This document shows, in pieces, positions 7,853 to 64,000 of a DNA stretch of 64,000 nucleotides; the stretch's first letter is position 1; each line of letters starts with the position of its first letter. This DNA comes from Psammoneis japonica (taxonomy: Eukaryota): assembly GCA_008632985.1 (NCBI GenBank), contig QPGO01000090.1, positions 62,001-126,000 on the forward strand. Reading direction: 5' to 3'. The notes beneath the pieces are model-generated. The model did no database searches, was not told where the DNA came from, and was given only the letters and a program-made list of their open reading frames with translations. A program made the position numbers and the translations under genes.

Positions 7853-7880
<28 letters not shown>
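7853..7880. repeat. (CT)14 microsatellite
   Basis: Directly visible. Confidence 0.95.
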
Positions 7881-7884
<4 letters not shown>

Positions 7885-9684: not shown

Positions 9685-12600
9685 TGCTCGTTGGATTCTC
9701 GTAGAATGGGCAGAAGCGTCGCAGCTCAGAATCTACAGCTCGGCTCGGGGCTGTTCGTCACGCTGAATACTGAATACACTATCAACCATGCAATGAACAG
9801 AGAACAAACAACTTGTAAACTTGTTTAGTAGTCAGGTGAGGATTTTGCGGGGTGTGGCGCTGTTGACAATAAGCCCCCCCGCCAGTTTCAGCAATGCTGC
9901 TGTCTGTCTGTATTCAAGCACCTGCGACACGGCCCCCACCCAGTCCCCCTTGTGCAAAAAAATCCGTTGATGCGACAACAGCCGTCGCGCCATAATTTTT
10001 TCACTTCATCGATGGTTTTCCTTTCAACAAGAGCGTTGGTCAAGAGAAGCCTCCTGCGTGTTGTCGTTGTCATACCTGCACTCGAAGCAATGCTTGTAAA
10101 GATGGTCAAGTCCTTCACACGACTTAAGAAGTTGAAGCAAAGCACATCTCAAAGTCAGTGCCCCCCCTTTGAACAAGTGCGAAAGAGGAGGGTGTGATGC
10201 TGAATGATGTGCTGGAAAGCAAAAGGAAGTTGACAAAGCCAGTCGATTCAAATGGAGGTGTGATCAACTTAAGAAAAGCAAAAAAATCATGAAAGAATTA
10301 AAGCTTGAGTTGACTTAGATCAAAAACATGCAAATGGCACACATCAAAGGGCCAGGGCACAAGAAGAGGGGCTGCAACGAAACTCGCCACACGAGCCCAG
10401 ATGCTTCAAGGTGCAAGTCATCAGAGAAAGTTTGACTCAGGTTCTGAAAAAGGTTGAGCCAGATTTCCTTTTAGCACTGCCACAGGGCTGCAGAAACAAC
10501 CTTGTCAAGAAGAGTGCTTTGAGCAATTGCTTTTCTCTGCATCACACAAGAAGCATTTTTTGATGCTCCCGAGTCTTTGGCAGATTGCAGCACCTCCACA
10601 AGCAATCTCAACTCAGTTGGGGATGCCCCAGCATTGAGCCCAAGGATGCATTGAAGCCTGTGTTGTGTGAAAAAATGACTGAGTTGAGTGTGAAAAAGAA
10701 AAACAAATGACCCCCACTGTCATGCTGATGTGGAGCACCAGCAGCAAAAAGAGCAACTTCTTGCTGCTGGACCACATTAAAGTGCCAACTCATCCAACTG
10801 TGGTGCCACAGGAGTTTGTTCATTCACAATGCCCTTGCATGCACCCAAACATCAACAGCACAGCAAACAGTTGGCGGTGGTGACCAATGTGCTTCTTGGT
10901 GTCATGGCCCTTCCCTCATGTGAGCACTGCATTTGCAACACCTCTGTCAGGTGGGGATGTGGATGAAACCTCTGACCCAGTGCACAGGTCTGCCCAAGGC
11001 TTCACTTTTCTTTGCTTGATGAGGTGGGAACTGAGCATGCACCTGGATCAGGTTGGAAGTGCTTTTCTTGCTCAGCGGCAGAGTTTTTGAGCACACAAGA
11101 GCTGAGCACAGCAGCACAAGATTTGCAAGCAGCACTGCACCTGTTTTCTCAGAATGAATGGTGACAGGAGGGTTGGGAGCATGGAATTGACACAAGTGCT
11201 CAAACTGCAGCAAGCTTGTGAAATTGTGCAATGGTTTGCTTCTGCGTGTTGTGTCAAAGGCTGTCAAACACCAACTTCCTGATGGGATCATTTGTGCAGT
11301 TCCGAGAAGCCATTTTTCTTTTTGCCTCACAAAGAGGTGAGCAGCAGTGACAGTGAACTGGCAGGTCACAGAGAGCCAGACAATGGAAAAGCCCTTTTCA
11401 TCAATCTTCCCAGTCAAAGCACAAGCTGCCTCAACACATTTCTGACTTTTCACAAGGGCAAGTTGTCCTTGGGTAAATTTCACAATCTGTTGGCCTGTTT
11501 TGGAGATGAGGGTTTGCAACAAACAATGCTTGTCAACAGTTTGAACCTCCATGGTGTGACACAACCTCAAGCAGCTAAAGCCCAAAGGATCGACAAAGTG
11601 AGGGACAGATGCAGTGGGGTGATGGACAAATGGGCCTTTGTTGAGGGGGGTGGGTGAAGAGAAGTGTGGTGTGTGTGTGACTCCAAGGTGCTGGACAGGG
11701 CGGCAGCTTGGTGGAGAGGGCATGGAGGAGCTTGTGGTTGAGTTTTGGGGCATGCCATGCAAGTGGTCTGCTGGAGACTTGGTGATGGCACAGCTGGTGC
11801 CACAATGGAGCGCAGTGTGCAAAAACTTGTTGTTGCTCCAAACTGCTGCATCAGATGGAAACATGCCTTGTGAGGAGCATTTCTTGTGAAAGAGAATGCA
11901 TCAAAGCAGGTGAGTGGGGGGAAGAGAAACTGAGTTCCAGGGTGGATGGGGGGGAAGCTTCTGCTGGCAACTTGCTGGAAGAAGAGCCAAATGAGAGTTG
12001 TTGGCAGCCAAAGCAGGCAACAATCAAGAGAGCCCAGGTGACAAACAGCAAGAACAGAGTGATGTGCTTTTTGTGGTTGAGGCAGCCAGAGTCACAGTGG
12101 GCCCATGTGCTTTTTTGCCGTTTCCCTGGAGCCCCCTCTTTGTGAGCACAGACAAGCCTCTGAAGGAGCTTGAGGAGGAGGAAAGAGCTTCCAAACAGTT
12201 GCATCAATGGCCATGCATGCACAGCAGAAGGGAAAAGCACATTGTGGCAAAAGTTTGAGCTGGGCACCTGGGCTCATCATGATCTTTGGGGCACTTTGCT
12301 GCTCTTTCTCACTGTGTGCTTTAGTCCAGCCATCAGGCATGCCATTGGCCAAGTCACAGCTGCAAAAATCTGAAAGGTGCAAGCGGCAAAGGACTCTAAA
12401 AATGGGAAAGGATCAAAAATGGAAGTGGGAGAAAAAAGTGCTTCTTCTGACAAGGTGCACAAAGCTCAGACCTTGTTTTCTTTGCACATGGTCCTTCTTC
12501 TTGGAAGCAACAGTGTCAGCAGCATTTGCCACTTTTGCTCCTCATGCCAGGCAGCCACAAGCAAATCTGTTTTGATGACAGCTCATTTGGATGTGATGAT

Positions 12601-13618
12601 TCCACCATGAATGTCAAGGAATGGAATCTCTCGAGCCCCAAATGACTCAAGAGACAGTGGTGGGGAGAAAAGAAGAACCCGCCAGCACCCTGCACCTTTG
12701 CGCTGGCATGTGATTTGAAGCAAATGAATCTGCACAGCCACAGCATCATAAAGAACACAGCTCATGCCAAGGCAACCACACAGTCTTTCACAAAGCAGGA
12801 GCATGTGATGGAGAGGAGCACCCAATGTCTGGAATGCAAAACAACAACTTGTGCATCTGAAGTGGACTGCATGCAATGTCGTCACTTGTTGAACAAGCTA
12901 CACTCCCAAGCTCCTTTGTTTTTGAGAAAGAACAAGAGCGCAGATGAGGCATGCTGAGAGTCTCGCTGTGTTGAACAGCAAAAGCAATGATCAAAAGAAG
13001 AAAGAAGAGATGGAAAGAGCTGTGGTGAGCCAATCATGCAGTGTGGGTGCAGGCAGAGAAAGGCAGTCCACAGAAGAATTGCACTCAAATTTGGAAAAAC
13101 TGGCAACAACAGTTTGGAGTTAGAGCACAAGTGCTGTTGTTCCAAGTCCTGCCTGCAGCCTTGTGATGCATGTTGTTTGATCTGGCATGTTTGCTCATTG
13201 CAAAGATTGTGGCACAGCAAGACATGGCAACTGTGGTGCAACAGAGAACACCAGGTCAAATGCAAAGGGTGTTAAGTTTGGCAGCAACAAGAAAAAAATG
13301 CAAGCAGAAAGGCAAAGGCAGGGGCAACAAGAAACCACAACTGGCACAAAAGTTGGTGAAAACACAAGTGCTGGCTGAGCTGTCAAGCAACAATGAAGAC
13401 AACAAGGAGGAAGAGGAACAATGCAAGAGTGCCACAAACCCACTGGAGGCTGCTGTTCAAATGACAACAACAGCATGTTGCAGAGCCAGCCCAGCCCAAG
13501 TGGTGCTTGCAACTGTCCTGGCACATGAAGCCAATCCTGGCCAGCAAACAACATCACAGCAACCAGCAAACAGGGCAGCAAAAAATTAGAGATGACTGGC
13601 TTCTGAGCACGTGGTGCA

Positions 13619-14100
13619 CCTTGTCACTCAGCAAATTCTGATTTTTGTCTCAGCAAAGGCAATGACAACATTTTCAACAGGAATCGTTCGAAAATGTCGT
13701 GTGGGTCATAATTGACATTTTGCACGAGGAAAACCACCACAAAATCGCGCAGAAATGTGCACAATGTCACGCGAGAGAGTGATCAGAGCTGATGACTTTT
13801 CGGGAACTGAGTTGAAATGCCATCTGATTGACGGCGTTGGCCTTCACCATGTGAATCAAAATGCCGTCAATCAGACAGCATTTCAATTGATTTCCTGAGA
13901 AATTGACACTCGTGTGCGGATGGATGGACAGACTGACGACAATTGTTTTTAGTGCTCTCCTGCACAATTTCTGCGTGGTGACTCTCAGGACCCGAATGAC
14001 TCCCATTGGCAAATCCACTGCCTGCAATCTAAAAAAAGGATCTTCAAAAGTTGTGATGACAAAATCAGCATTTTTGTTTGTCAGGCATTTGGTGACAAGG
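13619..14100. mobile_element. Fold-back MITE-like element, about 480 bp
   Basis: Ends CCTTGTCAC..GTGACAAGG with subterminal inverted match (CTGATTTT..GTC). Central hairpin about 13800-13900 (GTTGAAATGC.ATCTGATTGACGGC / GCCGTCAATCAGAC.GCATTTCAA). No clear TSD. Confidence 0.65.
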
Positions 14101-15567
14101 GACAGGGGGTTCCTTGAAGCACAAACATTTTTGTAAAAAAAAATTGTTGTTCACCACAGTTAAAAGAGCAAAGTTTTGAACAACCAGCCATCTTTGATGG
14201 CGCAAAAATTGCACCTGTGAAAGGGGAAATTTTGCCATGAGATGGGTGCCCTTTGAGGCAATGTGCCATCTGATGTGGCTTCCATTGAGAAAGTTGGCAG
14301 TCCAAAAAATTGCTCATGCTGCCCACCAGCCACCAGCTCAGGCTTGCTTTGAGCCTGATCCTCCAAAGGAAGCCTCCCACTGGCCAGCGCTTGCTGCTTA
14401 AGAAGACCAGGGGCAGGAGAGTGATGCGTGAACCACTTTTTGAGCATCATGTCAGCATGGGCCCAGACTTCTCAGGTGACTCTGAGGTGGATCTGTTGCC
14501 TCCAAAGATCCCAAAGCTGTCAGATGCCACCATGGCTGCTCTGTCATCAAGCACATCAGCAATGTTTCTCTTTGCTCACAGCCCAAGCTTTGAACCAAAT
14601 TTGCCCCCTGCAGCACTGAGCCCAACTTCTTGGAGTTGGTGCCTGCTGCTGCAAGATGTGCCAAGCTTTTTGTGCATTTTTCAGAGGAAGCATTGACAAA
14701 AGATTTTTCTGAGTGTTGCCAGCAAGAGAGAGCACCTCATTTCTTGTTGCTTTTCCCATTTTTTCAAAGAACAAGAGCAGCAGCAGCCAACCAGCAACTG
14801 ACAGCAGCCACGTGCACTGATTTGCAATTCTTCAAACATTGTGGCTGTGCTGTGCTGTGCTGTGCTGTGCCATCATGCTCTGCCACACAAGAACCCAGCT
14901 TCAAATGACAGAACAAGAAGGTGCTCATTGGGGACCTTGGATTGAAGTGGCAATGTGGACAAAGTGCTGGGTGCACAAGAGCAAACCTTGGAGATCTCAA
15001 GCACAGCTGAGGCATCCTTGAAAGTCTTGGCTTGGCTGTGGCACTCAATTGTTTCGGTGGTGTAAACAACTGCAATGGTTGGAGGGGCTTCAATGGGTGG
15101 AAGGGTCGTTTCACCTTGTCAAACTGGTGCACTGAGGATGTTCATGCATGGGTGACTGCTTTGGACCACACAACTGCTGGAACAGAGAGCAGCTGCTGAG
15201 GTGACACAGGGTGAAAAGGTGCAGGGAATGATGTGGCACAGTGCAAAAAGGTGCAGCGAACAATGTGGAGAGCTGCCGGCTGCAACCAGAATGGTGTGCC
15301 ACCAACACAGATGCTCTGTCAGCACCAGTGTCCTGCTCTTTGCAACATGCAAAAGGTGAGCTGATGACACTGTCAGCATCCTTTCCAGAGAAGCCGTGGT
15401 GTTTGTTTGTGGTTGTCCAAGTGCAAAATGAGCAAGCTTTCTTGAGCAAAAGATTTGGGCTGAACTCAATTTTCCATGAATTTTTGTGCTGTGCATTTGC
15501 AGTCAGGCAGCTCCAGTTGCACTGAGAAAGCTCTTCATGAAATCAAACCAGTGCATTCTTGTTAGCT

Positions 15568-15945
15568 TCAAACAGTTGCAGGCTGCTGAGTGACCAACAA
15601 TCTTGTCTTGTGCAACTCTGTGAGGATCTCAGGTGTCACATCATGTTCTAAATTGTTTGCAAGCAAGACAGGCAAGTCATCAAACAACCAATGCCAGCCA
15701 TTGGACCCATCGAGTGTGTCCATGACAGGTGTTGCTCCCATGTTCAGGGCTTCCCAAGTGCGGCAGCAATCATGTGCACAACCAGATGGGGACAGAATGA
15801 ACTTAGATTGTCTTGATTCTTCAAAGCAGTTGTCCTCAGCTCCCATCTTGCAAGCATTCTTGACACACAGACCATCAAACTTCTTCAACACAGACTTTGT
15901 GGTGCTCAACTGATTGTCAAGCTCTTGGCAGTTAATCAACCACAA
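15568..15945 (-). pseudogene. Exostosin/GT47-like glycosyltransferase C-terminal remnant
   Basis: SKFILSPSG..HDCCRTWEALNMGATPV...LFDDLPVLL matches the family pattern SKFxLSPxGxGxDCYRxWEALxxGxIPV..LPVL, with Tyr converted to Cys. Confidence 0.7.
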
Positions 15946-16398
15946 GAAGCTGTGCTCTGTTTGGAGACCAAGGCTGCTTCAAATGCCCCCATTCCTTGCT
16001 CCTGGTGGCAGAACATGCACTGCGCCATCTGTTTGCACAATGTGCACTTGCTCTTTGTCACAACAGCCACACTGCAACATTTGTCAAGCATGTCATGCTG
16101 CATCCCCCACCTGTTGTGAGTTTCAAAGAGGAGCCAAAGGTGCGCCACTGGGGGCAATGTTGACAAAATGGCCAACAACTGCTGAGCCTCTCTTGAAGGA
16201 TCAGATGAGTGCGGCACCACACTTGCACTGAAAAAGCAGGGGAAGAAGCTGGAGAGGAGCAGTGCCATGACCCAAGCAACCTTGAAGGGCATGACATGGG
16301 CCAGCTGGCTTTTGGAAAAAAGATGATGCAAAGGCTGCAAGGAGGGTTTGGAGATGATGGCATGTTTGCCATGAGATCCATCATTTGGCCACATTTAA

Positions 16399-16920
16399 CA
16401 CGGGATCCACGGATGCACCAGGGGAATCTGCGAAACGCGGGATGAAAGGGGAAAGGGGCAAATGTGAATGGTGGAAAAGTGACATGCTGCTGTTTTACCT
16501 GGAGGGACCCTTTGGTCAGCCAAACACGCTTGTTGCCGATTTGACCTCGCAGGTCGTCTTTTGAGGTCGTTAATTTGAGAGAGCAGACGCGGTCTCTAGA
16601 AACAATTTTGTGCATTTCATCAGACCATTGACATTGTGCAAATCTGAAAACGACACACATGAAAAAGTGAATTTTCAACTTTGTGTGACCTTCACAGCCG
16701 TGCACATTGTGCAACGATCAATCCTCAAGACGCGTCCCGTCACAACATTTTGACACCCCCCACAAGACGGACCTGTGATGGTCAGATGAGAAATGTGCGT
16801 GTGTTCGGCTCACTGAAGGGACCCTTGAGGCACAATGACAGCCCCTCACTTTCCCACCATTCCCATTTGCCCCTTTCCCCTTTCATCCCACAATTCCCGG
16901 GTGCACCCATGGATCCCATG
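16399..16920. mobile_element. TTAA-flanked MITE with long imperfect TIRs (piggyBac-like)
   Basis: TTAA|CACGGGATCCACGGATGCACC ... GGTGCACCCATGGATCCCATG|TTAA. Arms stay complementary for well over 100 bp (GGGATGAAAGGGGAAAGGGGCAAATG). Confidence 0.8.
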
Positions 16921-18215
16921 TTAAAGCTGCACATCTGGAGTGGTGGTCTTTGTGCAACTTTCCAGCACTGCAGTGGAGAGAGATTTTTCTCAGCAACTGA
17001 GCACATTGTCAAGACAGCTCAGCAAAACACTTTGCACAATGGCATTTTTGTGGCATCATTTTTCTTGTTTGTGCAAGGGATGTGATGCAGCAGTGAAAGG
17101 CAATGGAGAAGCATCTTAAGTTGCACAGAGCATGTGTGAGGTGTGTTTTCTGCCTTTGTTTTGTTGCAGCAAAGCATGATTGCAGTGAGCCTGGTGCTGC
17201 ACCACACGCATCCTGCACAGTGTGCATTTTCTCTGTGCAATTGTGCACTCCATGACTGCAGATCCCTGCACTGCATGCTGTGCATTGAGCCTGTCCCTGG
17301 GAGCAGAAACAAGCCAAGGACAAAGTTTTCAACTCATGCACCATGCGACATCTCAGAGTGGGGGGATGTGAGAGTGTGTGTGGTGGCTGGTGCTCACCAC
17401 AGACAGCTTGGACACCACATTTTGACATGCAAGCACAAACCCATCATGCAGGTTCCACTCGTGTGACTCTGTGTGACATGGTGCAACAATCTGCAAGATC
17501 CATCATCCCAGCTGGTTGAGCATGCAGCCAGAAATGAAAGACACAATGACTGCACAAGAGCAGGCCCTCTGCTCTTGCTGGCTGCAGCAGCCAGGCTGCA
17601 ACTGGAGCTGCACTCTGGAGTTTTTGAGCAGATTTCCAAGCAACTGGCACTGCACCTCCTCACCCAAGTTGAAGCTCATTTTTTGGAGGGAAAACAAAAA
17701 GTGCAAGGATTGTCATGTGTCAGGTTGCTCAACAACGATGCTCACAGCAGCTTCTTGAAAATCCTTGGCTTTTAGAGCTGCAACCTGTGCCCACCTTCCT
17801 CACCCACCTGTGAAGCTCCCTGAGTGCCAAGGTGCACAAACCCACCATGATGCCTGATGTCCAAAAAATTGCTTGCATCAAAACATGTGCATCAGCTGTT
17901 CTCGTGGACTCTTGCACTCACAATCAATGGATGCCAGCAGACCTGTGGGCAGAGCACTGCAATGCAAAATTCAACATCCAATGAAAAGGGAGCCCAAATC
18001 ATGGGCAGAAAGATGAAAAATGTGTGTGGCGGTGTCAACAGCATTTAAAATTTGATGGAAAAGAACAGCGTCACAATGTTGCCCATGGCAAGGGTGGGTT
18101 GTTGGGGGCTGCAGTGTGAGAATGCAGCTCATGGGAATGGTGTCTGAACAAAGCTGTGTGCAGTGGATGAGGTGTGTTTTGCCAGCTCAAAAAGACATGT
18201 TCATCAACTCACATG

Positions 18216-18427
18216 NNNNNNNNNNNNNNNNNNNNNNNNNNNNNNNNNNNNNNNNNNNNNNNNNNNNNNNNNNNNNNNNNNNNNNNNNNNNNNNNNNNNN
18301 NNNNNNNNNNNNNNNNNNNNNNNNNNNNNNNNNNNNNNNNNNNNNNNNNNNNNNNNNNNNNNNNNNNNNNNNNNNNNNNNNNNNNNNNNNNNNNNNNNNN
18401 NNNNNNNNNNNNNNNNNNNNNNNNNNN
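18216..18427. other. Assembly gap (N run)
   Basis: 212 N. Confidence 1.
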
Positions 18428-18579
18428 GGGAAGATGGCCAGACAAAAAGGGGTGTGTGAAAGATTGTCCTGTCCAAGCCACACACAATTGAGTGTCTGCC
18501 TCCTGCTGCCCTCTGAAACATTCCAATGAAGTCATGCAAACTGCAGTGTGAGAAATCAATTCATGGGAACAACATCAGC

Positions 18580-19660
18580 CTGCAGTTGACTGTGGAGCAC
18601 AGTGATGCCTGCATTGGTTTTGATGCTCAAAAGAAGAAGAAGAAGAAGAAGCACACAAAAAGTGACCACAAAGATGGCCAGGACATGGTGGTGAACAACA
18701 TCAATGAGTGGCCTCAACTCTTGCTTTTCAGGCAAAGTTGTTTCTCCTCAAGACTCTCTGCTGTCTTCTGTTTCATGATGTGCAATCTGCACTCCCAACA
18801 TGATGCAATGGCCTCACAGCCAGCAACTTCCCGGAGCTTGCAAAGTGCAAAAGCCCTCCACATTCTTTGCCCTTCACAGCTTCACACACTCATTGGTGCA
18901 AAATTTCCCACATGCAATGTGGAGGAAGTCAATGAGTTGTGCCTGTTTCAAGACAAAATGCATCAAGAGCTTGTCTTTTGAACCCAAAAATGGACACATG
19001 CTCAAGGGTGTTGTTTTGGAAGCCCCTCTGGGTTTGCCTGTTTGCTTCCCACTGTTGCACCAAGGACTCCACTGTCCTGGTTCATGCCCTCTTTCAGACA
19101 TTTCATGGCACATTTCAGGCCAGCTCCTTGCTGTGAGATTTGGAAGTGGGTGGGTTGGCAGCATTTGAGAATGGGGACTTTTGGAGTTGTGGCTGCAATC
19201 CTGTCACTCTGTGAGCTCTGTTGCTCCACGACATGCAACAAGAGCTTTTCCCAAGAATGGCACACTGAGTTCAAATGGAAAAGGCAGCTTGGCAGATTTT
19301 TCCTGAATTTTGTGCAAAGCATTGGTGATCTCACATCATGTGATGTGCACAAAGCCCGCCTTTTGCTTTGATGCTCCATCTGAAAAAAGACGCTGACACT
19401 GGCTGCACCAAATTGGCTGCATCAGCATCCACAGGCATGACTCAAATTTTTTTGTCAGCTCATCAACCTTGGCTTGGACTTTCTGCCAAGTTGCCAAGTT
19501 TTTCTGTGCTGCTTCTTGCGCTCCTTGTTCCAGCCCTTCAGCTGGCCCTCTCTGGAGCACCGTCAAACAACCTTGCATCTCACACACTTCTTCAGATCCT
19601 TTGGCAAAGATGAGAAGCATGGAAAGTTGCTGCAATTTTGAAAGCTCACATTGCTGCTGC
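18580..19660. pseudogene. Hypermutated paralogous copy of 6510-8550 (F-box-like 5' part and MYND 3' end), lacking about 7170-8145
   Basis: Collinear matches such as GACTGTGGAGCACAGTGATGCC vs GACTGCGGAGCACAGTGATACC, and CCTTGCATCTCACACACTTCTTCAGATCC vs CCTTGCATCTCCCGCACTTCTTCAGATCC. Confidence 0.85.
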
Positions 19661-20584
19661 GCTCAAGCCAGTGCCATGGACAGCAAACACCTTTTCACCA
19701 CCGCCAGCTCTCTTGAGCAAGAGGACAAGGGGAGGCACTTGTGGTCTTGCGGCATCCTCTCATGCTGGCGCTGGTGCTCCTCCTGGCAGCGGGTGAGCTC
19801 CTCCTCCTCCTCCTTGTCCTCCACCCTCATTGCAGCACACACACACAAAAGCCAGGGGAAAAAGATGCACAAAGCTGTTTTCTTGTTGCAGAGCCGGCTC
19901 CAGTGAGAGTGGAAAACTTGTTGTGGCTGCTGTGAGTGGGGAGGAGCAGCAGCACTCATTTGTCTTCTCAGTGAGTTTGGCTCTTGTCAAAGAGCAAAGC
20001 ATTTTCCAGTGGGCAATGGGTGCAGATGGGTTGGTTGGAGGAAGTTTTGAAATGAAGAGGGGTGCAGGGGGCTTTGAAATGGAAGGGAAAAGGGGGTTGT
20101 CCAACGCACAATGCGATCTTGTTGACAGCAGGTCACGTGTTTCTTGGAAGAGGATTCTCGTTGCTGCTTTTTTTTTTGACAATCAGCAGTGCTCCAGCAG
20201 AGATTGTGGCTGCTGTGGACTGAGTGATGCAACTGCAGTTTCCAGCCAGAGGCCCCACATCATCATGTCATTTTGTTCATTTGCGCTCGATTGCACGCAC
20301 CTCAGGCACCTGGCTGGAGTCGTCAACTCCTCGTGCGCGTCAGTGGACGCATCACAACTTGAAGTTTGTCATGAACCCTCGACAGCTTCAGCCGACGCAG
20401 AACATCTTTCGTGGATTCTTTTGAACAAAAAGAAGAAACCAAGCACACAACGCATGTGCGAGCATTGCCGGCATCGCCGCTGCTGTCACCAAGCTGAGAT
20501 GACCGATGCCAAGCACAAGGCCGCTGTTGATTGTGCCCGCAAGGACGTTGAGGGGATGTTTGAGAACTCAAATCTGCAAGATGA

Positions 20585-29480: not shown

Positions 29481-29485
29481 GAAAG

Positions 29486-55900: not shown

Positions 55901-56593
55901 TGGTGACTTGGGAGCATGTTCCACTGTGCAAGTGTCAGTGGCCTTGGTGCACTGCTGGGCAAACTTGGTGTGCATCACTTGGAGCATCTGTGTCAGGATG
56001 GTGTTTGCAGTGCCCATGTGGTTGGCAAGGGCTGGCAGGTCCTGCATCAACCACAACCATGCACAGTGGTTGAGATGAGCATCCTCTGCCAGTGCTGCAG
56101 GGGTGGCCACAGAGATGCTGGGTGGCAGATCAGGATTGCCAGCTGCATTGCCAGGATGGTGGGTGCAGGCCACACAAGCCCAGTCAAGGAGGGGGGTGCA
56201 GGCTTCTCCACACCCATCAGCAACAATGAGCTGCATCACACCCATCCAGAACTGCTGCAGGGTGAAGCTCTGATGATGGGCCACAACAAGGGACATGCAA
56301 GCAGGCAGAATCAGCATGAGGAAACAAGTGTGCACCTCTTTGACTTGTGCCACTCCATCAGCACAAGGTCCGAGACAGTCAGCACTGGCTGCCACAGCCT
56401 CTGATTGCAAAAACAATGGTTTTGACCTCAACAGTGGTGTCATGATCAAAACAATGAGGTTTGACTGCCTCATGGTTTTTCTCTCATTGGCTTCAGCCAG
56501 CGCATTTGACAGGTCATCTTGTTGGTGATGCAGTCCGAGTGCATCTGTTGTCTGCAAGCTTCATCACTGCACCTGCTCCACACAGACCTTGGT
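52991..56593 (-). mobile_element. Ngaro-type (DIRS order) tyrosine-recombinase retrotransposon, internally deleted and degenerate
   Basis: Split direct repeats A1(56593-56405)-ORFs-B1(53478-53342)-A2(53343-53148)-B2(53128-52991). Gag-like ORF 56557-55650, RNase H (DAVGPGMGGTWF..NSDFKL.G.IAH.DIL) and YR motifs IGFFFLCHPG, RSLQAGGAMALLCA and RLVGR..SDKMLR.LHTQA. Confidence 0.85.
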
Positions 56594-57741
56594 CATGCAG
56601 GCATTGCTGATCCAACTGAAATTGTGCAGCACACATCTGGTGTTTGTTGTTTTTTGCATCATTTCTGCAAGCGTTGCATTGCTGATGAATGATCAACAAA
56701 GTCTGATGAGCACAGTTAAAATTTCAAATTCAACAGATGTCAGACCTTCATTGACAAATTTAACATGGAATGGAGCAAAGTGACATCACCTCCTAAACCC
56801 CATTGGCCAAGCTGGATGACAACAACAATGGCAACAATGGCAGCTCTGATTCAACGCCCACAAAATCCCCTGCCAAAAGAGCATGAGTGGAGACTTGAAC
56901 ACTCACCCTTCACACTGAGAAGGAAGAACAAGCAAAGAGATTGAGAGTGGGAGGACATGCTGGAATTGCAACTTGGGGCCAACCTCTCAAGTGCAAATCT
57001 GTTCATGCTACAAACATGGTCAACAAATGTAAGAACAAGGGAGGACTCCCAACTTGCAGAATGACGAGCAACAGGAACTTGGATGTGAAGCCACAGAAAC
57101 TTCCAACCTTCCCAGAATCCAGTCCACTTCAGCCAAAAATCTGTCAATTCATCAACAAGACCCCTGATGCCACTGACAAACAAAACAAAGACAAGGCTGG
57201 CACTGAGGCCAACAAAGAAAACATTGCACATTGGCAGAGATGGTGAGGAGGTTTGAACTGCCACAGAGGGGAGTGCACAGTTGGAGGACAAGGAAAGCTC
57301 AGAGGGAGCTGTCATTCCGTCAATTGATGACACCAATGCCACACCCAACGACTTCAACTCAGATGCAGAATGGATCATGTGTGAAACGCATGGCAAGACA
57401 TGTCATCTTGGCGATGGTGCTGAACTGGATGGTGGGACATTGGACAACAAATCATGGCAAGAGCACTGGCATGCTGGCTGATGCCCTGCCCATTGCAACA
57501 ATGCAATGCACCAAATGGCTCAGTTGGAAAATGATTCATTGCAATGTTGGCAGAGCTGTTGCATGGAGTCACAACATGGAAGTGGAACTTGGAAAGGTTT
57601 GCAGTGTGTCAAATGGTCATTTTGCTGCAGCAGGGCTGCAATGTAGAAGGAGCCAAAGATGTCAAAACCTTGCTCAGCATGTGCATGGATGATTGGGACT
57701 TGGGTGAGAGCAAATGCTGGTCCAGTCAATGAAACAGCTGC

Positions 57742-58767
57742 TTGAAGCAAACCTCAAGACAGTTCAAAGGGAGGAGATGCCTGAACAGCACTTCAAGACA
57801 TTCAATGGATGGTGCTGCTCTCCAAGGGAACCCAAGAGGAGCAGTCAGGCACATCTCTGAATGCAAAAAAGGTGAAATCCTCTCACTGGATGATGCCAAA
57901 GAAAAAACCAATGACACAGTGTTTGAGGCACTTCAGAAGAAACATCCAAACCAGGGGTCCCAGATGAAGACCATTTTCACAAGTTCTGTGAGCTGCCTGA
58001 GCTTCAAAACATCCTCACTGCAAATGGCGCTGTCAAAACCGTTGCACAAAGACTGTCTGGGAGCACAGGACTTGGCAGATCTGATGCCAATGCAGCATCT
58101 GAATGGCTTCTCTGTCATGGAAAGGCCAGCGGAGTGCTCAGAGAAGTGACGCGCATGTTTGCAAATTGGCCAGGCGGCAAATGAGTTGCCCCCATTGGCT
58201 GCATGCTGTGCAATCATGGAGAAGTGACTTGTTGTGCTAGAAAAAAATCCGGGTGTGCATCAGGTTGGCACAGGGGAGGCATGGCAACAAGCTGCGGCCA
58301 AAGCCATTCTCCTGGTTGCTGGAGCAGAGGCCAAGGAAGCTTGTGGGACAGACCTGCTGTGTGCTGGACTGGAAGCAGGCATCAAAGGTGCCATCCATGC
58401 AATGAGTGTTCTCTGGAAGCAACACAAATTTGAAGATGGCTGCAGATTTCTTTTTGTCAATGCCTCCAATGGGTTCAACAAAGAGAACAGGATCCCAACG
58501 CCATGCAACATGAGGCACCTTTGGCCATCCAGTGCAAGGTTCACCTTCAACAGCTGCAAGTGTTGGAGCATCCTGATCATCCACGGGAACTTTGGAGCTG
58601 CCCTCATTTTGTTCAGCAAAGAAGGTGTCACGCAGGGTGACCCACTTGGTGTGGGAGCACATGGACTGGGACTTCTTCCACTGGTCCACAAGATGAATGA
58701 ACGTTTCAAGAATGCACTTGCCCCTTGGTGTGCTGATGACTCCACAGCAGTGAGCGGGAAAATTTGA
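57742..58767 (+). mobile_element. Non-LTR retrotransposon RT remnant, CRE-like clade
   Basis: PGVHQVGTGE, EACG..LCAGLEAGI.GAIHA, RHLWPS.ARFTFN, EGVTQGDPL and WCADD (=WYADD). Element boundaries not resolved. Confidence 0.82.
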
Positions 58768-59380
58768 CATCCTGCGTTTTTTCCCCCGAAGACATCAAGA
58801 TTTTAATGAACCTCAATGAGCTGCACCCACCAGCAATTGATTTTGCCCACAATCATTTCCCTCATGTAAAAAAAGCCAGCGGGCAAGTCCATTCAGCACA
58901 TCTTCTTGCCTCCCAGAAGCCAGAAAAACCCACAAAACACAACATGAGTTGAAAATTGAAAGTGCTTGTGATGCAGGAGAAAAGAAGAGAATTGAAGCTT
59001 GCAGCCAGGAGATTGGTTGCACACACAAACATTCCTGTGACCTGCACATGCAGAAGCTCTGCAGGCGACCCTCAGCATTGTTTGTAGAAAGCACTTTCTC
59101 ACGCAAACAATGTGTTGTGCCAGCAGTCACATGATGTCCTCCATTCTCCATCACAAAAAGCAAAAAATGAAGGAGGGGATGTTGCAGCTTTGTTTCTTTG
59201 TTCCACATCCTGAGTGAACTCAATGATCATTTTTTTTGTGATTTCCAAATTTTGTGCACTGATGAAACATTGTGTGAATGCATGACAGGGAACATTTTGC
59301 CAAGCAAATCACTGAACAATTTTGATGTTTAATCTTAACTCATGTGATGTCGCAGTTTTCTTTTTTTTGTGCTTCTTCAA

Positions 59381-59922
59381 GGCAATCGCAGAACCGCGCG
59401 AGAAATGAGAAGACGATTCGACTTTCTGAATTTTTTTTGCACTGTAAACTTCGTGCGCGCTACACGCATCATCGCTAAAAATCGGCGACATGACGATGGT
59501 GCGTTGTCGTAACGACGGCGATAAAAACGACGTGTCCTCGACTGTTTGGGCACCACAGACATTTAGTTCATTAAGTTTAAGAACGTGTTCAGTCATGAAA
59601 GTCCCCGGGAGAAGCCTCCGTTCGAAAGCAAAACGTCACACCAATGCCGAGCTCAATTTTTCGACCATCGTTTGGTTTGATGCATTCGATTGTGGAACGA
59701 CCAAGAGTTCGTCCGGGGGACTTTCTTGATGCACACGTGTTCTTAAGAGTGTCATTGACACAGTCGCTGAGTGCCAATTGTGAAGTCTTTCTCTAGGAGT
59801 GTCGCAAACTTGTCATCGTCATCGTCGGCATTGAACGGCAATTTGTCGCGCAAATCGCGAAAACACAGCACGGACCGTTGTCTTCCGACATTGAGCTGCT
59901 GCACGCGACTGCTGCGCACACC
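59381..59922. mobile_element. About 540-bp TTAA-flanked non-autonomous element, copy 1 (Kolobok-like termini)
   Basis: TCAA|GGCAATCGCAG...CACACC|TTAA. Collinear with 59951-60484. Confidence 0.7.
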
Positions 59923-59950
59923 TTAAAAAAAAACTTTCATCTTTTTTTAA

Positions 59951-60484
59951 GGCAATCGCAGAATGAAGGGGCAAAGGCACGACAATTTGATTTTTCAGGA
60001 TTTTCCACTGCACGAGAAACGCGCAGCGCGCTACGCGCCTCGTCGCCAACAATCGGCGACGTGACGGTGGTGCGTTGTCACAACGACAGCAATGACAGCG
60101 ACGTGCCCCAGAGTCTTTTGTCATCACAGACATTTAGTTTGTCATGTTTAAGAATGCATTCAGTCATGAAAGTCCCCGCGAGCAACCTCCATTAGAGCGC
60201 AAAACGTCACACCAATGAGGAGCTCTGTTTTTCGACCGTCGTTTTATGCACTCAATTGTCGAACGATCATGAGTTCGTCTGGGGGACTTTCTTTACACAC
60301 ATGTGTTCTGCATGGTGCAATTGATCAATGTGTTAAGTGCCCATTGCAAAGTCATCCTCTGTCAGCGTCTGAAAATTGTCATCATCACGTCGGCGTCGAC
60401 GGCAATTTGTCGCGCAAATCGCAAAAAATGCACGACTGTCGTCTGTCTGACATTGCGCCACTGTGCGCTCGTTGTGCACGTGCC
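59951..60484. mobile_element. About 535-bp TTAA-flanked non-autonomous element, copy 2 (Kolobok-like termini)
   Basis: TTAA|GGCAATCGCAGAA...TTGTGCACGTGCC|TTAA. Confidence 0.75.
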
Positions 60485-61879
60485 TTAAAACGAGTCCTCT
60501 TTTTTTGTGAATGCTGACATCACCCCCTTTTTAAAAATGGGCTTCTTAAAAAAAAAGCTGTGAAGGATCCACATGATGCACTCCATTCTTTGTGTTCACT
60601 TTCATGTGCCAACCTTCTCATGACAACACATTGCAGCATTGTTCTGAAAACGGCCCCGGTGTGAACTGCTGGGAAGCTTTCCAACTGTTGACTGAGTGCT
60701 GTTCTTGCAACAGCTGCAATGTTGAGCAGCAATTTTGCTCCTGTCACAACTCAAAGAGCACGTGAGTGATTGCAACCCTGGCGCAGCGCTTGCATTTGCT
60801 GCGCCACAATTCAATTCTTGTTGCTCAACTGTCTGACAACTTGTTCACCATGACAATGCCCCACCACAATTGCGAGGGTGCTCATGGAGGTGGAGGGGGC
60901 TCAGCCTTGTTGCCCATCCTTCTGTTGTCATCCTCTTTGTCTGAGGATGATGGGGATGTTGTTGGCAAGACATCTCTGGCAACCTCTTGCACTGCTGTTG
61001 GCTGTTTGTCTGAGTCATCAGCATTGTTGGATGATGACAGCAGCTCCCCTTTTGCTTCTTCAGGTCTGAATCTGCATTGTGCAACAAAAGGGATTCAAGG
61101 TGAGTGCAAGAAGATTCCTGCTGTGTCAACGGCTGCTTCTCATGTTGCTCCGGCTTCCAGGTTCTGCACACATGATTCTTCATTGTTAGATGACAGCCTT
61201 TTGGAGTCGCCTTTTGTGGGAAAGAAGCAGCATGCAACGGCCAAGTCTTCCACTTGTGCTGGCAATGAGCTGCTGTCATTAGATTGAGAAGATGACAGCA
61301 TCAGGGAGTCACCATTCCCTGGGTTGCACAGCACCAACAAGTGTTGTGCCAGCGGCAATGAACCATCTTCTTCAGATGAAGATGATGACAAAAGTGTTGC
61401 AGAGTCACCTTTTCACAAATCTCTTTAGCTGCGTCACATCTTGTGGCATCAGATGACTTGCTGAATTTGTCAAAGTGACACAAACACAGCAACATGAGGT
61501 TGCCATGCTCAATCTGTTCCAGCTTGGCAGCTTTGTCAGAGAATGAAACAAGTGCACCACTTTGCAGCTGAGGCAAGCAGTCTGTGCAACAAAGCAATGG
61601 CTTCTGTGGAGGGACATTTGGTGAGTTCTTGTCTCAACACTTGGCAACGTCAGCCAGAAAACTGTTGTAAAAGGCAGCACAGTCTCAACCTGTGTTGCTG
61701 TTGCTCACCATCTCAGCAACATTGAGCATCGCAAGGAGACGTGTGGTGTCTTGCCAACTCACATTGGTGCTGCAAGCTGGCACTGCATGTTGTGGTGACA
61801 CCAAAATCTTTGTGTGGAGAATCTTTGCAGAAGATTGACTGAATTTCTGGTGGCGCCAACACAGACAGAACAAGTCGTC

Positions 61880-62400
61880 TTGTGCCCAGAAGCACGCACA
61901 TGATTTGGGCCATTTGTTTTGTGCACAAATGCATCTTGAAGGAAGGGAACAGCTGACTGAGCTGCAGAATGCCAGGGAGGTCAGTTGTCTCATCCTCCAG
62001 CTTGTTCTTCCACTCCTCCAGATCTGCGTCCCGGAACTTCTTGCCAAATTTGATTGTGTTGTTCACAGCACACCTTGTCAAGCCAAGTTCTGACCGCATC
62101 TTTTCTTTTGACTCTCTGGCAATGTTGCAGACAGTGTCCTTTGATGGTTGTGCAATGTGATTGGCCATGTAAAATGATGCATCTGTCATCTCCACCAAAC
62201 TCTCCTTTGCAAACTCAGATGGCATCTTTTTGCCAGCTCTGAACTCATCAAGCAGATTCATTTGTGCCGTGCTGCAACAAGAACCACATGGCTTCCCTTT
62301 CACATGGAGACAATTTCCTGCAAAGGTCAAACAAAGAGAAAACGCATTCCAGGTCTGTGTGGGACCTCGCACTGCTGAACTGTGACATCAACAGTTTTTT
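61880..62400 (-). mobile_element. Possible Mutator/NOF-like transposase remnant
   Basis: PGILQLSQLFPSFKMHLCTKQ resembles the segment preceding the first catalytic Asp of MULE-like transposases. The catalytic motif itself was not seen. Confidence 0.3.
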
Positions 62401-64000
62401 GAATCGCATTGCATGTTGCGCATGCACATTTCTACGTGATTTTGGCAAAATTTTGCATCATTTTACAGCGCAGTTGTCAGGTGATCCATTCAACAACTTC
62501 TAATGTTTTTTCTTCTGTGCCATTCTCGACTGTCTTGTGAATGGCACAGGGCAGGCGCATCATCCAAAACTTTGAGTGCAAACAGGGATGGATGCACTGT
62601 TTCATGTCAAAGACAAACAATGTGTCCATTGACCATCAAAACCTGCTGCAAAAGATGTTGGACAACCATCAGATGAGGCAGCGCAATGTCCTTTGCTCCC
62701 AAAAAGAAAAAGTTGTGCTTGTGCTTCCTTCCCCTTTTGGCTTTTTCTCCAACATCATTTGGGAAAGGAAGCATGAAATGTTGGTCAAAAGTCAATGAAA
62801 CATGGCTCGGCATGTTGGGATGACCCTTGATCCACTCTCAAGATGAGCTTGACTGCCCTTGCTTGCCAGTTGTTTCAAATGACGGACCTGGCACATCTGC
62901 CCCAATCCATGTGCGCAGCTGCTGAAATGGGGCAGGAGTTGTGCGTGGCCCACATTGCTTGTGTTCCATGAGGGCACAAAGGTCATCATCAAGGAAGGTG
63001 CAAAGTTGCATTGGATTTGCTTCTTTAGGTGCCACTGGAGCCATTTGATTTTTCAGCAGCAGCGGAGCCAGCTGACAACCTTGGTCGGAGTCACGGAGCA
63101 CAATTTCAGGGAGAGTGACACATTGCAATCATCATCTGCAGTGGAAGACAAAGGCTCTGAATGAGGTTCTTGCAAATGGGACATTGCTGGTGAGTCCAAA
63201 AAATCAATGGCGTTGGTGTCATCATTGCGAGAGCTCCTTTCTTCCGTCAAGCCGCCCATGATCACTCTTCCTTTCAAGTCTGCAAAAAGCAAATGAACCA
63301 CTTTGTTGGTTGTTGACTCACAAAGATCATCACGGGAAAGGAGAGGAGGAGTTGTCACTGTGCACTGCTTGCTTGTGTGCAGCAGCAACAGGATTGATGG
63401 AAAACAACCAAGAGCTCTTTCCGTTGCAATGCTTTTCGAATGTAAAAACTCCCTCCGACATCCAACCTTTAAGATGCAACGAAAAAGGATTTCATTGGTC
63501 AATGAAGATGGAAGATCTTTTGTGAGACATTCAGCAGCTTGTCATGCATGTCACAATGTCAACATTTGAGTCACAAATGAGCTGTGTGATGCCACGTGTG
63601 AGGTTTGAAGCAACTGCATCATTCTCAACAAGGGTTTGTCAGAGGTTCTTGAGCACCTGAGTCAAGGCTGTGTCATCATTCTAGGGAGCTTTGGTTGTCT
63701 TGATGATGCAGATGTTGAGATGACATCATGCCACAAGGTTGGTTTGATGCTGCATCACATTGGCACAATTGTGAAGCCACCCTTTGTTTCCAAAGTGCTG
63801 GCTTCAAGTGATGGCAAAATGTGCCACTGTTTTGTCTTTGGGATGACCCGTGCAGAAGAAGATTGTCGCCATGGACTGTGGCTCTGCACAATTTGGAGTT
63901 TTGAGGGATGGTGAACCATTTGTTGCCAGCAAACTCCAGGTGCATCTCAAGGAGTTGGGAACACATCACATGCTTGTTGGTGGAGAAGCCAGCCCTGGAT

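What the first reader, a model, noticed from the sequence alone, without database searches (positions are those of the whole stretch)
9870..64000. Candidate undescribed genome-defence mutator: TpA->TpG/CpA (A>G) hypermutation of repeat domains, on top of CpG decay
Seen: about two thirds of the window is almost free of both TA and CG and saturated with TG/CA, while neighbouring genes have normal TA. Direction can be read from internal pairs (GATACC>GATGCC, GGTATT>TGCATT, GCGTAC>GCACAC, AATAAG>AACAAG, ACTACG>ACTGCG), from TSDs (TAA>TGA at 20582, TTAA>TCAA at 59377) and from invariant Tyr residues (WYADD>WCADD). Established: 5mC deamination explains CG>TG/CA, and fungal RIP creates TA, so neither removes TA. 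Inference: a second, domain-restricted process converts A:T to G:C at TpA on both strands. Candidate mechanisms are a DNA-acting TadA/ADAT-like adenine deaminase, error-prone Pol-eta-type synthesis (WA>WG, though A-runs survive here), or a mutagenic base modification. I know of no description of this in diatoms, but a literature check is needed.
Basis: partly seen in the sequence, partly recalled or inferred. Interest (0 to 1): 0.95.

Follow-up and report, generated by a model that had tools for sequence, protein, structure and literature searches.

The report
TpA-erasing hypermutation of diatom repeats
About two thirds of this diatom genome window is old repeat DNA in which almost every TA step has been turned into TG or CA (besides the usual loss of CG), the mark of a targeted mutator so far reported only in one 2026 preprint on an unrelated alga.

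Summary
In 81 of 127 500-bp windows TpA is below 0.25 of expectation, mostly 0.00-0.09. CpG is also low in 64 of those 81. TG and CA are about doubled, and their gain balances the TA+CG loss.

Contigs rebuilt from a public DNA run at about 60x reproduce the TA-free sequence.

The direction is TA to TG/CA:
- All 4 conserved-Tyr columns of a decayed reverse transcriptase now read Cys or His.
- Unmutated partners of repeat pairs keep TA where mutated partners have TG/CA.
- LTR pairs carry TG-versus-CA discordances that can only arise after insertion.

- The target is 5'-TAY-3'. RTAY sites are essentially gone and TTAA survives.
- CpG loss never occurs without TpA loss.
- The process cannot create stop codons.

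It is no longer undescribed. A 2026 bioRxiv preprint measured TpA-only A>G/T>C hypermutation of integrated viruses in Bigelowiella natans.

This window is from a diatom, and eight literature searches found no diatom report. The enzyme is unknown.

The parts
10001..20583 (.). Hypermutated block 1. TpA o/e is 0.00-0.11 from 10501 on, and 0.20 in the edge window 10001-10500. CpG is mostly 0.00-0.25. It contains the N gap 18216-18427. The last ~480 bp (20100-20583) are TA-free but CpG-normal.
18541..19665 (+). Decayed copy of the TpA-normal segment 6471-8547, in two pieces (18541-19202 and 19271-19665). It holds 0 TA where the partner has 35, and 6 CG where the partner has 48.
   Evidence: 84-88% identical in purine/pyrimidine space
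6471..8547 (+). Unmutated partner of 18541-19665. It lies among host genes and overlaps the 3' end of a zf-MYND ORF (8334-9302, minus strand). It shows that duplication alone does not trigger the process in both copies.
20584..22035 (+). TIR-element copy 1, with 48-bp terminal inverted repeats and a 121-bp tandem duplication at its 5' end. TpA and CpG are both normal.
22036..23412 (+). TIR-element copy 2. In the internal tract ~22230-23270, about 38 of 41 aligned TAs are lost, mostly to TG or CA, while CpG is kept (50 CG against 43 in copy 1). The first ~100 bp keep 7 of 8 TAs.
25751..29250 (.). Hypermutated block 2. TA stops near 25,680, but CpG stays dense until ~26,130.
35751..49750 (.). 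Hypermutated block 3 (14 kb), with TpA o/e 0.00-0.16 and CpG 0.00-0.35. Parts of it are multi-copy in run X1 (depth up to 12,982 against about 60 in genes).
36097..36460 (+). 5' LTR (TG...CA ends) of a 6.75-kb LTR element spanning 36097-42846.
42482..42846 (+). 3' LTR of the same element. It is 78% identical to the 5' LTR overall but 94% in purine/pyrimidine space. Of 76 shared YR steps, 13 are TG in one LTR and CA in the other.
46851..48336 (+). Decayed Ty3/gypsy pol: RVT_1 (E 2.7e-4), RT_RNaseH (4.6e-6) and Integrase_H2C2 (1.2e-9), broken over several frames.
49751..53000 (.). Mostly TpA-low zone (o/e 0.06-0.20 in five of six 500-bp windows) with mid or normal CpG (0.51-0.93). It contains a 519-codon open frame (49865-51421, minus strand) with no Tyr codon.
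53001..59250 (.). Hypermutated block 4. It includes the direct repeat pair 53148-53343 / 56405-56593, where 5 of 44 YR steps are TG-versus-CA discordant.
57000..58764 (+). Decayed reverse-transcriptase element. The ORF 58228-58764 has 2678 homologues. All 4 conserved Tyr columns now read TGC, TGC, CAT and TGT.
59251..60500 (.). CpG-rich island (o/e 1.4) with intermediate TpA (0.26) inside the hypermutated DNA. It is a tandem pair, 59373-59896 / 59943-60458.
60501..64000 (.). Hypermutated block 5. It runs off the end of the window.

Best explanation
The window is diatom nuclear DNA. Gene islands alternate with old, silenced repeats: an LTR element, a Ty3/gypsy remnant, another RT element, a TIR transposon copy, and a stray copy of a host-side segment. 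After they arrived, these repeats underwent site-specific transition hypermutation in place, on both strands. The A of 5'-TpA-3' became G, which reads as T to C on the other strand.

The efficiency depends on the base 3' of the A, in the order T, then C, well above G, then A. This erased about 93% of TpA steps, and essentially all RTAY sites.

Ordinary methyl-CpG decay is superimposed on a subset of the same DNA that is nested inside it and slightly narrower.

Shown here: the signature, its direction, its in-place post-insertion origin, its context rule, and its separability from CpG decay.

Inferred: it is the same kind of process as the TpA-only hypermutation measured de novo in Bigelowiella natans. 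That would make it an enzyme recruited to foreign or silenced chromatin that irreversibly scrambles it.

My preferred chemistry, at about 0.4, is deamination of adenine to hypoxanthine by a TadA/ADAT2-like or other deaminase.

Because TA to TG/CA can never create a stop codon and removes TAA and TAG, the damage comes through missense changes (all Tyr lost, and changes to Ile, Leu and Val) and through loss of TA-containing signals. It does not come through nonsense mutations as in fungal RIP.
For: Signature.
- Core low blocks hold 102 TA in 36 kb, against 778 in 19.25 kb of normal DNA. The TG+CA gain (0.088) matches the TA+CG loss (0.082).

Direction.
- All 4 Tyr-consensus columns of the RT (67-100% Tyr among 16-143 homologues) are Cys or His in the window. 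For comparison, Phe is kept in 4 of 6 columns and Leu in 14 of 20.
- 79 of 80 metagenome relatives of this RT have TpA o/e 0.33-0.95, so the family is not natively TA-free.

Specificity.
- With the TpA-normal copy as reference, A>G is 51/146 at TpA. It is 26/322 at ApA, 39/269 at CpA and 29/284 at GpA (OR 4.5, p 3e-12).

Origin in place.
- The two LTRs of one element differ by 49 transitions and 18 transversions, and 13 of 76 shared YR steps are TG against CA.
- Only one member of each normal/low pair is mutated.

Context rule.
- Survivors are TTAA 27, CTAA/TTAG 35, CTAG 7, GTAA/TTAC 16, and ATAT, ATAC/GTAT and ATAG/CTAT 0.
- A per-strand multiplicative model fits (survival 0.77, 0.33, 0.10 and 0.03 for 3' A, G, C and T; chi2 5.0, df 6, p 0.54). 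Uniform loss is rejected (chi2 279, p 7e-55).
- The pairs agree: TAY 38/86 against TAR 13/60, p 0.005.
- The side that mutated (TG or CA) falls as the model predicts in 13 of 16 strongly asymmetric contexts, p 0.011.

Separability from CpG decay.
- Window classes are 64 TAlow/CGlow, 10 TAlow/CGmid, 7 TAlow/CGnorm and 0 CGlow without TAlow.
- At three of the five block edges I compared, the TA-free zone reaches about 130-480 bp further than the CpG-poor zone.

Reads.
- X1 contigs reproduce the sequence.

Precedent.
- In B. natans mutation-accumulation lines, 230 of 231 mutations in two integrated viral regions were A>G or T>C, and all of these fell at TpA.
Against: - No genome, methylome, mutation-accumulation or enzyme data exist for this organism, so ongoing activity and the enzyme are untested.
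- The 8 fixed differences between run X1 and the window in 30-50 kb include none at TpA. Almost no TpA targets remain there, so this says little.
- The 'expected' TA contexts were taken from host-gene DNA, not from the true ancestral repeats. Some surviving TAs may also be new mutations.
- The outgroup polarity rests on only 4 Tyr columns of one element.
- The TG-versus-CA side test is only borderline over all 33 asymmetric contexts (21 on the predicted side, p 0.08).
- The 3' preference for T and C fits bacterial TadA's natural site only in part. By my recollection it does not fit eukaryotic ADAT2/3 substrates.
- X1 may be the assembly's own data.
Confidence: 0.8

Rival explanations
1. The same targeted process, but the chemistry is on the thymine. 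A TET/JBP-type dioxygenase oxidises T at 5'-RTA-3' to 5hmU or 5fU, which mispairs with G, or is excised and misrepaired, giving T>C.
For: The signature is symmetric, so it cannot tell A>G from T>C. The context rule reads equally well as R-T-A. Dinoflagellate TET/JBP homologues make 5hmU that is enriched in repeats and linked to transposon silencing (PMC11572971, passages). From recollection, not from a call: base J and dinoflagellate 5hmU favour T before A, and 5-formyluracil mispairs with G.
Against: No evidence for 5hmU in diatoms was seen in the papers I read; 'diatom' occurs 0 times in PMC11572971. By my recollection, 5hmU itself pairs faithfully with A. Dinoflagellate genomes rich in 5hmU are not reported as TA-free in the passages I read.
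Confidence: 0.15
2. Error-prone Pol-eta-type resynthesis (WA>WG) during non-canonical mismatch repair of T:G mismatches that arise from 5mC deamination.
For: TpA loss and CpG loss coincide in 64 of 81 TpA-low windows. From recollection: Pol eta makes A>G errors at WA.
Against: ApA is untouched: its frequency is 0.0804 against 0.0798, and A>G at ApA is the lowest of all contexts at 26/322. TpA loss occurs without CpG loss in 7 CpG-normal and 10 CpG-mid windows, and in TIR copy 2. The strong dependence on the 3' neighbour is not a known Pol-eta trait, by my recollection.
Confidence: 0.04
3. A-to-I hyperediting of double-stranded retroelement RNA (ADAR-like) before reverse transcription, so that copies arrive already mutated.
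For: By my recollection and as noted in the preprint's Discussion, ADARs prefer U 5' of the edited A. Several of the affected sequences are retroelements.
Against: The two LTRs of one element differ by independent TG/CA resolutions made after insertion. A TIR DNA-transposon copy and a copy of a host-side segment are affected too. The TA-free state runs seamlessly across element junctions for 14 kb. In B. natans the mutations arise de novo in single-copy integrated DNA.
Confidence: 0.03
4. Assembly or base-calling artefact, with modified bases misread.
For: The library type of X1 is not on record, and X1 may be the assembly's own data.
Against: K-mer contigs at about 60x give one fixed TG or CA choice per site. 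The blocks also carry indels, frame breaks and 5-6% transversion divergence between LTRs. An unrelated metagenome contig (L033) shows the same signature. Illumina mutation-accumulation data show the process in another alga.
Confidence: 0.02
5. The repeat families are natively TA-poor, through selection or avoidance of a TA-directed nuclease or integration target, rather than mutated.
For: Related copies at 90-99% likeness lie on the TA-free sequence in run X1. So some TA-free copies were duplicated after they were mutated, or are natively TA-free.
Against: Invariant Tyr codons of the RT are destroyed. 79 of 80 relatives have ordinary TpA. Unmutated partners exist in the same window. The coding frames are broken.
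Confidence: 0.02

Closest known systems
TpA-specific hypermutation of integrated viral DNA in Bigelowiella natans (bioRxiv 10.64898/2026.01.13.699255; I read the abstract, Results and Discussion, and ran term searches)
   Same: Only TpA is hit, giving TpG or CpA depending on the strand. The process is confined to foreign or silent DNA. There is a long-term footprint of TpA-depleted, TG/CA-enriched clusters, and RT and DDE-endonuclease domains are enriched among the TpA-depleted coding sequences.
   Different: The lineage here is a diatom (stramenopile), not a chlorarachniophyte (rhizarian). The targets are transposon remnants with no viral domain found. Erasure is near complete (TpA o/e about 0.03, against 0.45 for their NCLDV region). 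It is coupled with CpG decay. A 3'-neighbour rule (TAY) is visible. The preprint text has 0 occurrences of CpG, diatom, stramenopile, context or trinucleotide. Nothing was measured de novo here.
Fungal repeat-induced point mutation (RIP)
   Same: Irreversible, transition-only scrambling of repeated or foreign DNA, giving extreme dinucleotide bias in sharply bounded blocks next to normal genes.
   Different: RIP turns CpA into TpA, so it creates TA, lowers GC and makes stop codons. Here TA is destroyed, GC is unchanged (0.46-0.50) and no stop can be made. RIP hits both copies of a duplication, whereas here only one partner is mutated.
Methyl-CpG decay of silenced transposons (5mC deamination)
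   Same: It accounts for the CG to TG/CA half of the pattern. Diatom transposons are CpG-methylated (PMC2806351 and PMC6604790, passages).
   Different: It cannot remove TA. Here TpA is depleted more strongly than CpG, and over a slightly wider area.
Deaminase editing of retroelements and viruses (APOBEC on DNA, ADAR on dsRNA)
   Same: Context-specific hypermutation used against mobile or foreign nucleic acids.
   Different: APOBEC gives C>T at TC or CC. ADAR acts on RNA and, by my recollection, has a different 3' preference. Here the changes arose in chromosomal DNA after insertion.
5hmU-based transposon silencing in dinoflagellates (PMC11572971, passages)
   Same: A SAR-lineage base-level mark on thymine that is enriched in repeats.
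   Different: It is an epigenetic mark. No TA-erasing mutational footprint is reported in the passages I read.

Membership tests
B. natans-type TpA hypermutation of foreign DNA | The excess substitutions are A>G/T>C transitions. | tested here: met
   LTR pairs show 49 transitions to 18 transversions and 23 to 5, with 33 of 49 and 18 of 23 transitions inside YR steps. The TG+CA gain equals the TA+CG loss.
B. natans-type TpA hypermutation of foreign DNA | The mutated A is preceded by T (TpA only). | tested here: met
   A>G is 0.35 at TpA against 0.08-0.14 at ApA, CpA and GpA (p 3e-12). ApA frequency is unchanged.
B. natans-type TpA hypermutation of foreign DNA | Confined to foreign, repeat or silent regions next to normally evolving DNA. 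| tested here: met
   Blocks change state within one 500-bp window. RT, RNase H and integrase remnants lie inside the blocks and host genes lie outside.
B. natans-type TpA hypermutation of foreign DNA | De novo rate about 1000-fold above background, episodic among lines. | not testable with these tools
   This needs mutation-accumulation or pedigree data. Here there is only a lower bound from saturation: TpA survival is 0.07 overall, while transitions outside YR steps amount to about 8% between the two LTRs (16 over roughly 206 positions, my own division of the counts).
B. natans-type TpA hypermutation of foreign DNA | Same enzyme or orthologous machinery. | not testable with these tools
   No genome is held for this window, and the enzyme is unknown in B. 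natans as well.
Fungal RIP | C>T at CpA, creating TpA and lowering GC. | tested here: not met
   TpA is destroyed, not made. GC is 0.46-0.50 in the blocks against 0.46-0.49 in genes.
Methyl-CpG decay | CG>TG/CA with other dinucleotides unaffected. | tested here: inconclusive
   The CpG half fits (CG 0.0094 against 0.0541), but TpA loss needs a second process. Methylation itself was not measured.
Pol-eta WA>WG mutagenesis | Both TA and AA are targeted. | tested here: not met
   AA is unchanged, and A>G at ApA is the lowest of the four contexts.
ADAR editing before retrotransposition | Mutations are made in RNA, so they are shared by both LTRs and absent from DNA transposons. | tested here: not met
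   LTRs differ at 13 of 76 YR steps by opposite resolutions. A TIR-element copy is affected.

The most novel reading that the evidence does not exclude
Diatoms and chlorarachniophytes share an old, possibly SAR-wide, chromatin-targeted DNA adenine deaminase with 5'-TAY-3' specificity. It would be a natural double-strand A-to-G editor derived from the TadA/ADAT2 fold. It marks a slightly wider domain than 5mC and may act upstream of it. It inactivates invaders without ever making stop codons, working as a mirror image of fungal RIP. One metagenome contig from a third organism (L033) already shows the same footprint.
Probability: 0.3. Interest if true: 0.9.

Novelty: new member of a known kind. 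Interest (0 to 1): 0.72.

Why it matters
A mutator that erases one dinucleotide from invading DNA has been seen so far in a single preprint on a single alga, and its enzyme is unknown. Finding the same footprint at saturation in a diatom matters for three reasons.

- It shows the process is not a quirk of one lineage.
- It ties the process to transposon control and to CpG methylation.
- It gives a sharper target rule (TAY; RTAY erased, TTAA spared) that candidate enzymes must reproduce.

Diatoms are ecologically dominant, and some species can be transformed, so the enzyme hunt becomes practical. A natural DNA A-to-G editor would also interest genome engineers.

For annotators there is a practical lesson. 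Long Tyr-free open frames in such blocks are fossils, not genes.

Tried and rejected
- Whole genome: none is held. So no genome-wide profile, no TE consensuses and no search for deaminase genes were possible.
I scanned stop-free ORFs instead. Of the 285 ORFs of at least 75 aa in the low blocks, only 3 gave retroelement domains. No viral (NCLDV or virophage) domain was found.
- The gypsy RNase H ORF, searched against longer proteins, found nothing, so the Tyr test could not be extended to that element.
The 519-codon frame therefore stays unidentified.
- The search of earlier findings returned nothing.
- No RNA holder was listed for the stretch. Runs X2 and X3 cover almost nothing.
- The 8 fixed differences between X1 and the window are not at TpA, so there is no sign either way of ongoing mutation.
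- No tRNA genes were found.
- Among the 80 metagenome loci, TpA o/e does not correlate with the RTAY share (rho 0.20, p 0.075). Only L033 stands out.
- The preprint's supplements (the list of mutated sites) are closed. I could not check whether B. natans shows the same 3' preference, so my statement that the TAY rule is new rests on the main text only.

Full report
**Observation.** The window splits into two kinds of DNA.
- In 2-kb windows, 10001-20000, 36001-50000 and 54001-58000 have TpA observed/expected of 0.01-0.08 and CpG of 0.05-0.24. In 26001-30000 the values are 0.05-0.18 and 0.18-0.26, and in 62001-64000 they are 0.06 and 0.30. TG and CA are 1.64-2.35.
- The gene-bearing parts have TpA 0.31-0.72 and CpG 0.79-1.17.
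- At 500 bp, 81 of 127 windows have TpA below 0.25. One window holding the N run 18216-18427 was dropped.
- I picked core low blocks (36,000 bp) and normal DNA (19,252 bp) by hand. The low blocks hold 102 TA and the normal DNA holds 778, that is 2.8 against 40.4 per kb.
- The loss of TA plus CG (0.082 of all dinucleotides) equals the gain of TG plus CA (0.088). AA is unchanged, and GC content is the same in both compartments.

**Is the sequence real?** One public DNA run (X1) holds 0.94 of the sampled words of 36001-46000.
- Its contigs, at k-mer depth about 60-70, cover the TA-free block with 0-3 differences per 0.9-4.2 kb contig.
- A misread modified base would not give one fixed TG or CA choice per site from both strands.
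- The blocks also carry indels, broken frames and transversions.
- X1 may be the assembly's own data, so this is reproducibility from reads and not a second technology.

**What the blocks contain.**
- Pfam found host genes only in the TA-normal DNA: glycerol-3-phosphate dehydrogenase, dienelactone hydrolase, a zf-MYND protein, a protein kinase, DUF1295, an ALKBH1-like dioxygenase, a HAD hydrolase and a ZIP transporter.
- Of the 285 stop-free ORFs of at least 75 aa in the low blocks, only three gave retroelement domains: RVT_1, RT_RNaseH and Integrase_H2C2 at 47059-48336.
- A further RT remnant at 57000-58764 has 2678 homologues, the best at E 1.5e-50.
- Self-comparison found a 6.75-kb LTR element (LTRs 36097-36460 and 42482-42846, with TG...CA ends) and a second direct repeat pair at 53148/56405.
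- It also found two adjacent copies of a TIR element (20584-22035 and 22036-23412) and a decayed copy (18541-19665) of a TA-normal segment that lies among host genes (6471-8547).

**Direction.**
- I laid 150 RT homologues on the window. All 4 columns in which Tyr is the consensus (67-100% of 16-143 homologues) read TGC, TGC, CAT or TGT in the window. Phe is kept in 4 of 6 columns, Trp in 3 of 5 and Leu in 14 of 20. Arg is kept in 6 of 13 columns, and its losses are of the CpG-decay kind.
- The family is not natively TA-free: 79 of the 80 best metagenome loci encoding relatives have TpA o/e 0.33-0.95.
- In the four alignments where one partner lies in TA-normal DNA, A>G is 51 of 146 at TpA. It is 26/322 at ApA, 39/269 at CpA and 29/284 at GpA (OR 4.5, p 3e-12).
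- In the reverse direction only 3 of 32 TpA sites differ that way.

**Made in place, after insertion.**
- The two LTRs of one element were identical when it inserted. They are now 78% identical overall but 94% identical once purines and pyrimidines are each collapsed to one letter.
- 13 of their 76 shared pyrimidine-purine steps are TG in one LTR and CA in the other. That needs an ancestral palindromic step (TA or CG) resolved independently in each LTR. The second pair shows 5 of 44.
- A DNA-transposon copy and a copy of a host-side segment are also hit, while their partners are untouched.
- This excludes RNA editing before integration. It also shows that, unlike RIP, duplication does not condemn both copies.

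**Separate from CpG decay.**
- The window classes are 64 TAlow/CGlow, 10 TAlow/CGmid and 7 TAlow/CGnorm. No CpG-low window keeps mid or normal TpA.
- In TIR copy 2, about 38 of 41 aligned TAs in the internal tract ~22230-23270 are lost. Its CpG count is 50 against 43 in copy 1, and its first ~100 bp keep 7 of 8 TAs.
- At three of the five block edges I compared (20100-20583, 25680-26130 and 35620-35750), the TA-free zone reaches about 130-480 bp further toward the genes than the CpG-poor zone.

**A context rule.**
- The 102 surviving TAs are far from random. TTAA has 27, CTAA/TTAG 35, GTAA/TTAC 16, CTAC/GTAG 8, ATAA/TTAT 8, CTAG 7 and GTAC 1. ATAT, ATAC/GTAT and ATAG/CTAT have 0.
- A model in which each strand's A survives independently, with a probability set by its 3' neighbour, fits the data. 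The survival values are 0.77 for A, 0.33 for G, 0.10 for C and 0.03 for T (chi2 5.0, df 6, p 0.54). Uniform survival is rejected (chi2 279, p 7e-55).
- Two partly independent checks agree. In the pairs, A>G is 38/86 at TAY against 13/60 at TAR (p 0.005).
- The side on which a TA was resolved (TG or CA) matches the model in 13 of 16 strongly asymmetric contexts (p 0.011). Over all 33 asymmetric contexts it matches in 21 (p 0.08).
- Caveat: the expectations come from host-gene DNA, and some survivors may be new mutations.

**A consequence.** TA to TG or CA cannot create an in-frame stop, and it removes TAA and TAG. This follows directly from the codon table.
- In the low blocks, TAA plus TAG fall from 17.9 to 2.4 per 1000 trinucleotide positions.
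- Long frames persist as fossils. Frames of 519, 350 and 317 codons have no Tyr at all, against 2.8% Tyr in host ORFs.
- Such frames should not be annotated as genes on length alone.

**Organism.** The ALKBH1-like and G3P-dehydrogenase ORFs have best hits at 57% and 84% identity. Every hit that carries an organism name is a diatom or a diatom-derived endosymbiont:
- Seminavis robusta, Fistulifera solaris, Nitzschia species, Cylindrotheca fusiformis and a Bacillariaceae MAG
- names truncated in the tool output as 'Asterion...', 'Duri...' and 'Chae...'

No hit reaches 100%, so this species' proteome is not in the collection, and it is not Bigelowiella.

**Literature.**
- One paper describes this process: bioRxiv 10.64898/2026.01.13.699255, dated 2026-04-14. 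I read the abstract, Results and Discussion and ran term searches.
- In 15 mutation-accumulation lines of B. natans, 231 of 302 mutations fell in two integrated viral regions, at about 6e-7 per site per generation. Of these, 230 were A>G or T>C, and all of those were at TpA.
- Hypermutation was seen in the larger viral region in only 11 of the 15 lines, and in the smaller one in 6 of them.
- Genome-wide they found 124 TpA-poor, TG/CA-rich clusters, and RT and DDE domains were enriched among the TpA-depleted coding sequences. They propose an ADAT2 homologue.
- The text never mentions CpG, diatoms, stramenopiles or flanking context.
- Six of my eight searches were aimed at dinucleotide bias or hypermutation. 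Together with passages of the P. tricornutum transposon paper and mutation-rate paper, they gave no diatom report.

**A third instance.** Among the 80 metagenome loci, L033 (2132 bp, GC 0.56) has TpA o/e 0.12 and TG 1.79.
- All 12 of its TAs are in the contexts that survive here (none RTAY, 9 YTAR).
- Its conserved Tyr positions read Cys and His, and one in-frame stop interrupts an otherwise open RT frame.

**Mechanism.**
- Shown here: a both-strand, TpA-directed, 3'-neighbour-dependent transition process acting on chromosomal DNA in bounded domains.
- Inferred: it is an enzyme recruited to silenced foreign DNA.
- Adenine deamination is my first choice, at about 0.4. The strict 5' T mirrors U33-A34 of tRNA anticodon loops, and the 3' C matches bacterial TadA's site (recalled, not from a call). 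The 3' T preference does not match known ADAT2/3 substrates.
- Thymine oxidation by a TET/JBP-type enzyme is the main rival, at about 0.15. In that reading the context rule is R-T-A.
- Pol eta is disfavoured because ApA is untouched.
- CpG decay most simply reflects 5mC deamination in the methylated core. CpGs with A or T on both sides survive less well than those with C or G on both sides (0.08-0.11 for TCGA and ACGT against 0.37-0.44 for GCGC and CCGG).

**Verdict.** The finding is real and striking. It is best filed as a new member, in diatoms, of a kind of genome-defence mutator first reported in 2026.

Noticed in passing
L033:1-2132: A metagenome contig from another organism (GC 0.56) carries a relative of the RT at 40% amino-acid identity. 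It shows the same footprint: TpA o/e 0.12, TG 1.79, none of its 12 TAs in RTAY contexts, and conserved Tyr replaced by Cys and His.
   Followed up: partly
window:29489-30751 (-): An intact ALKBH1-like 2OG-Fe(II) nucleic-acid dioxygenase gene (PF13532, E 3e-33) sits in a gene island between two hypermutated blocks. Most likely this is coincidence, but the family acts on modified DNA and RNA bases.
   Followed up: partly
window:49865-51421 (-): A 519-codon open frame with no Tyr, 20 His and 11 Cys, in DNA that is TpA-poor but CpG-normal. It is probably the fossil of a real gene kept open because this mutator cannot make stops. Its identity is unknown: there was only a weak UPF0449 hit, and the Atlas was closed.
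   Followed up: partly
window:20100-20583, 25680-26130, 35620-35750: At these block edges the TA-free zone extends 130-480 bp beyond the CpG-poor zone, toward the neighbouring genes. At 25,680-25,996 it overlaps the first ~100 codons of the DUF1295 ORF, whose N-terminal half gives no Pfam match.
   Followed up: partly
window:59251-60500: A CpG-rich tandem pair (o/e 1.4; 59373-59896 / 59943-60458, 76% identical) with intermediate TpA is embedded in hypermutated DNA. It is either a later insertion or a protected element.
   Followed up: no
window:40673-41339: This bin has a summed k-mer depth of 12,982 in run X1, against about 60 for genes, so it is a very high-copy short repeat inside the TA-free LTR element.
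   Followed up: no
window:31486-32049: An internally repetitive stretch, with many offset self-matches at 68-74% identity, lies inside overlapping long ORFs on both strands. TpA o/e is 0.21 but CpG is normal. It is probably a repeat-containing coding region rather than a target of the mutator.
   Followed up: no
window:2190-2192: The two halves of the glycerol-3-phosphate dehydrogenase gene (1509-2189 and 2193-3110) are in the same frame and separated by one stop. About 280 nt there are not matched by the Pfam domain, so this is probably a short intron.
   Followed up: no
low blocks: Surviving CpGs are biased toward G/C flanks: CCGG 0.44 and GCGC 0.37 of expectation, against TCGA 0.08 and ACGT 0.11.
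   Followed up: no
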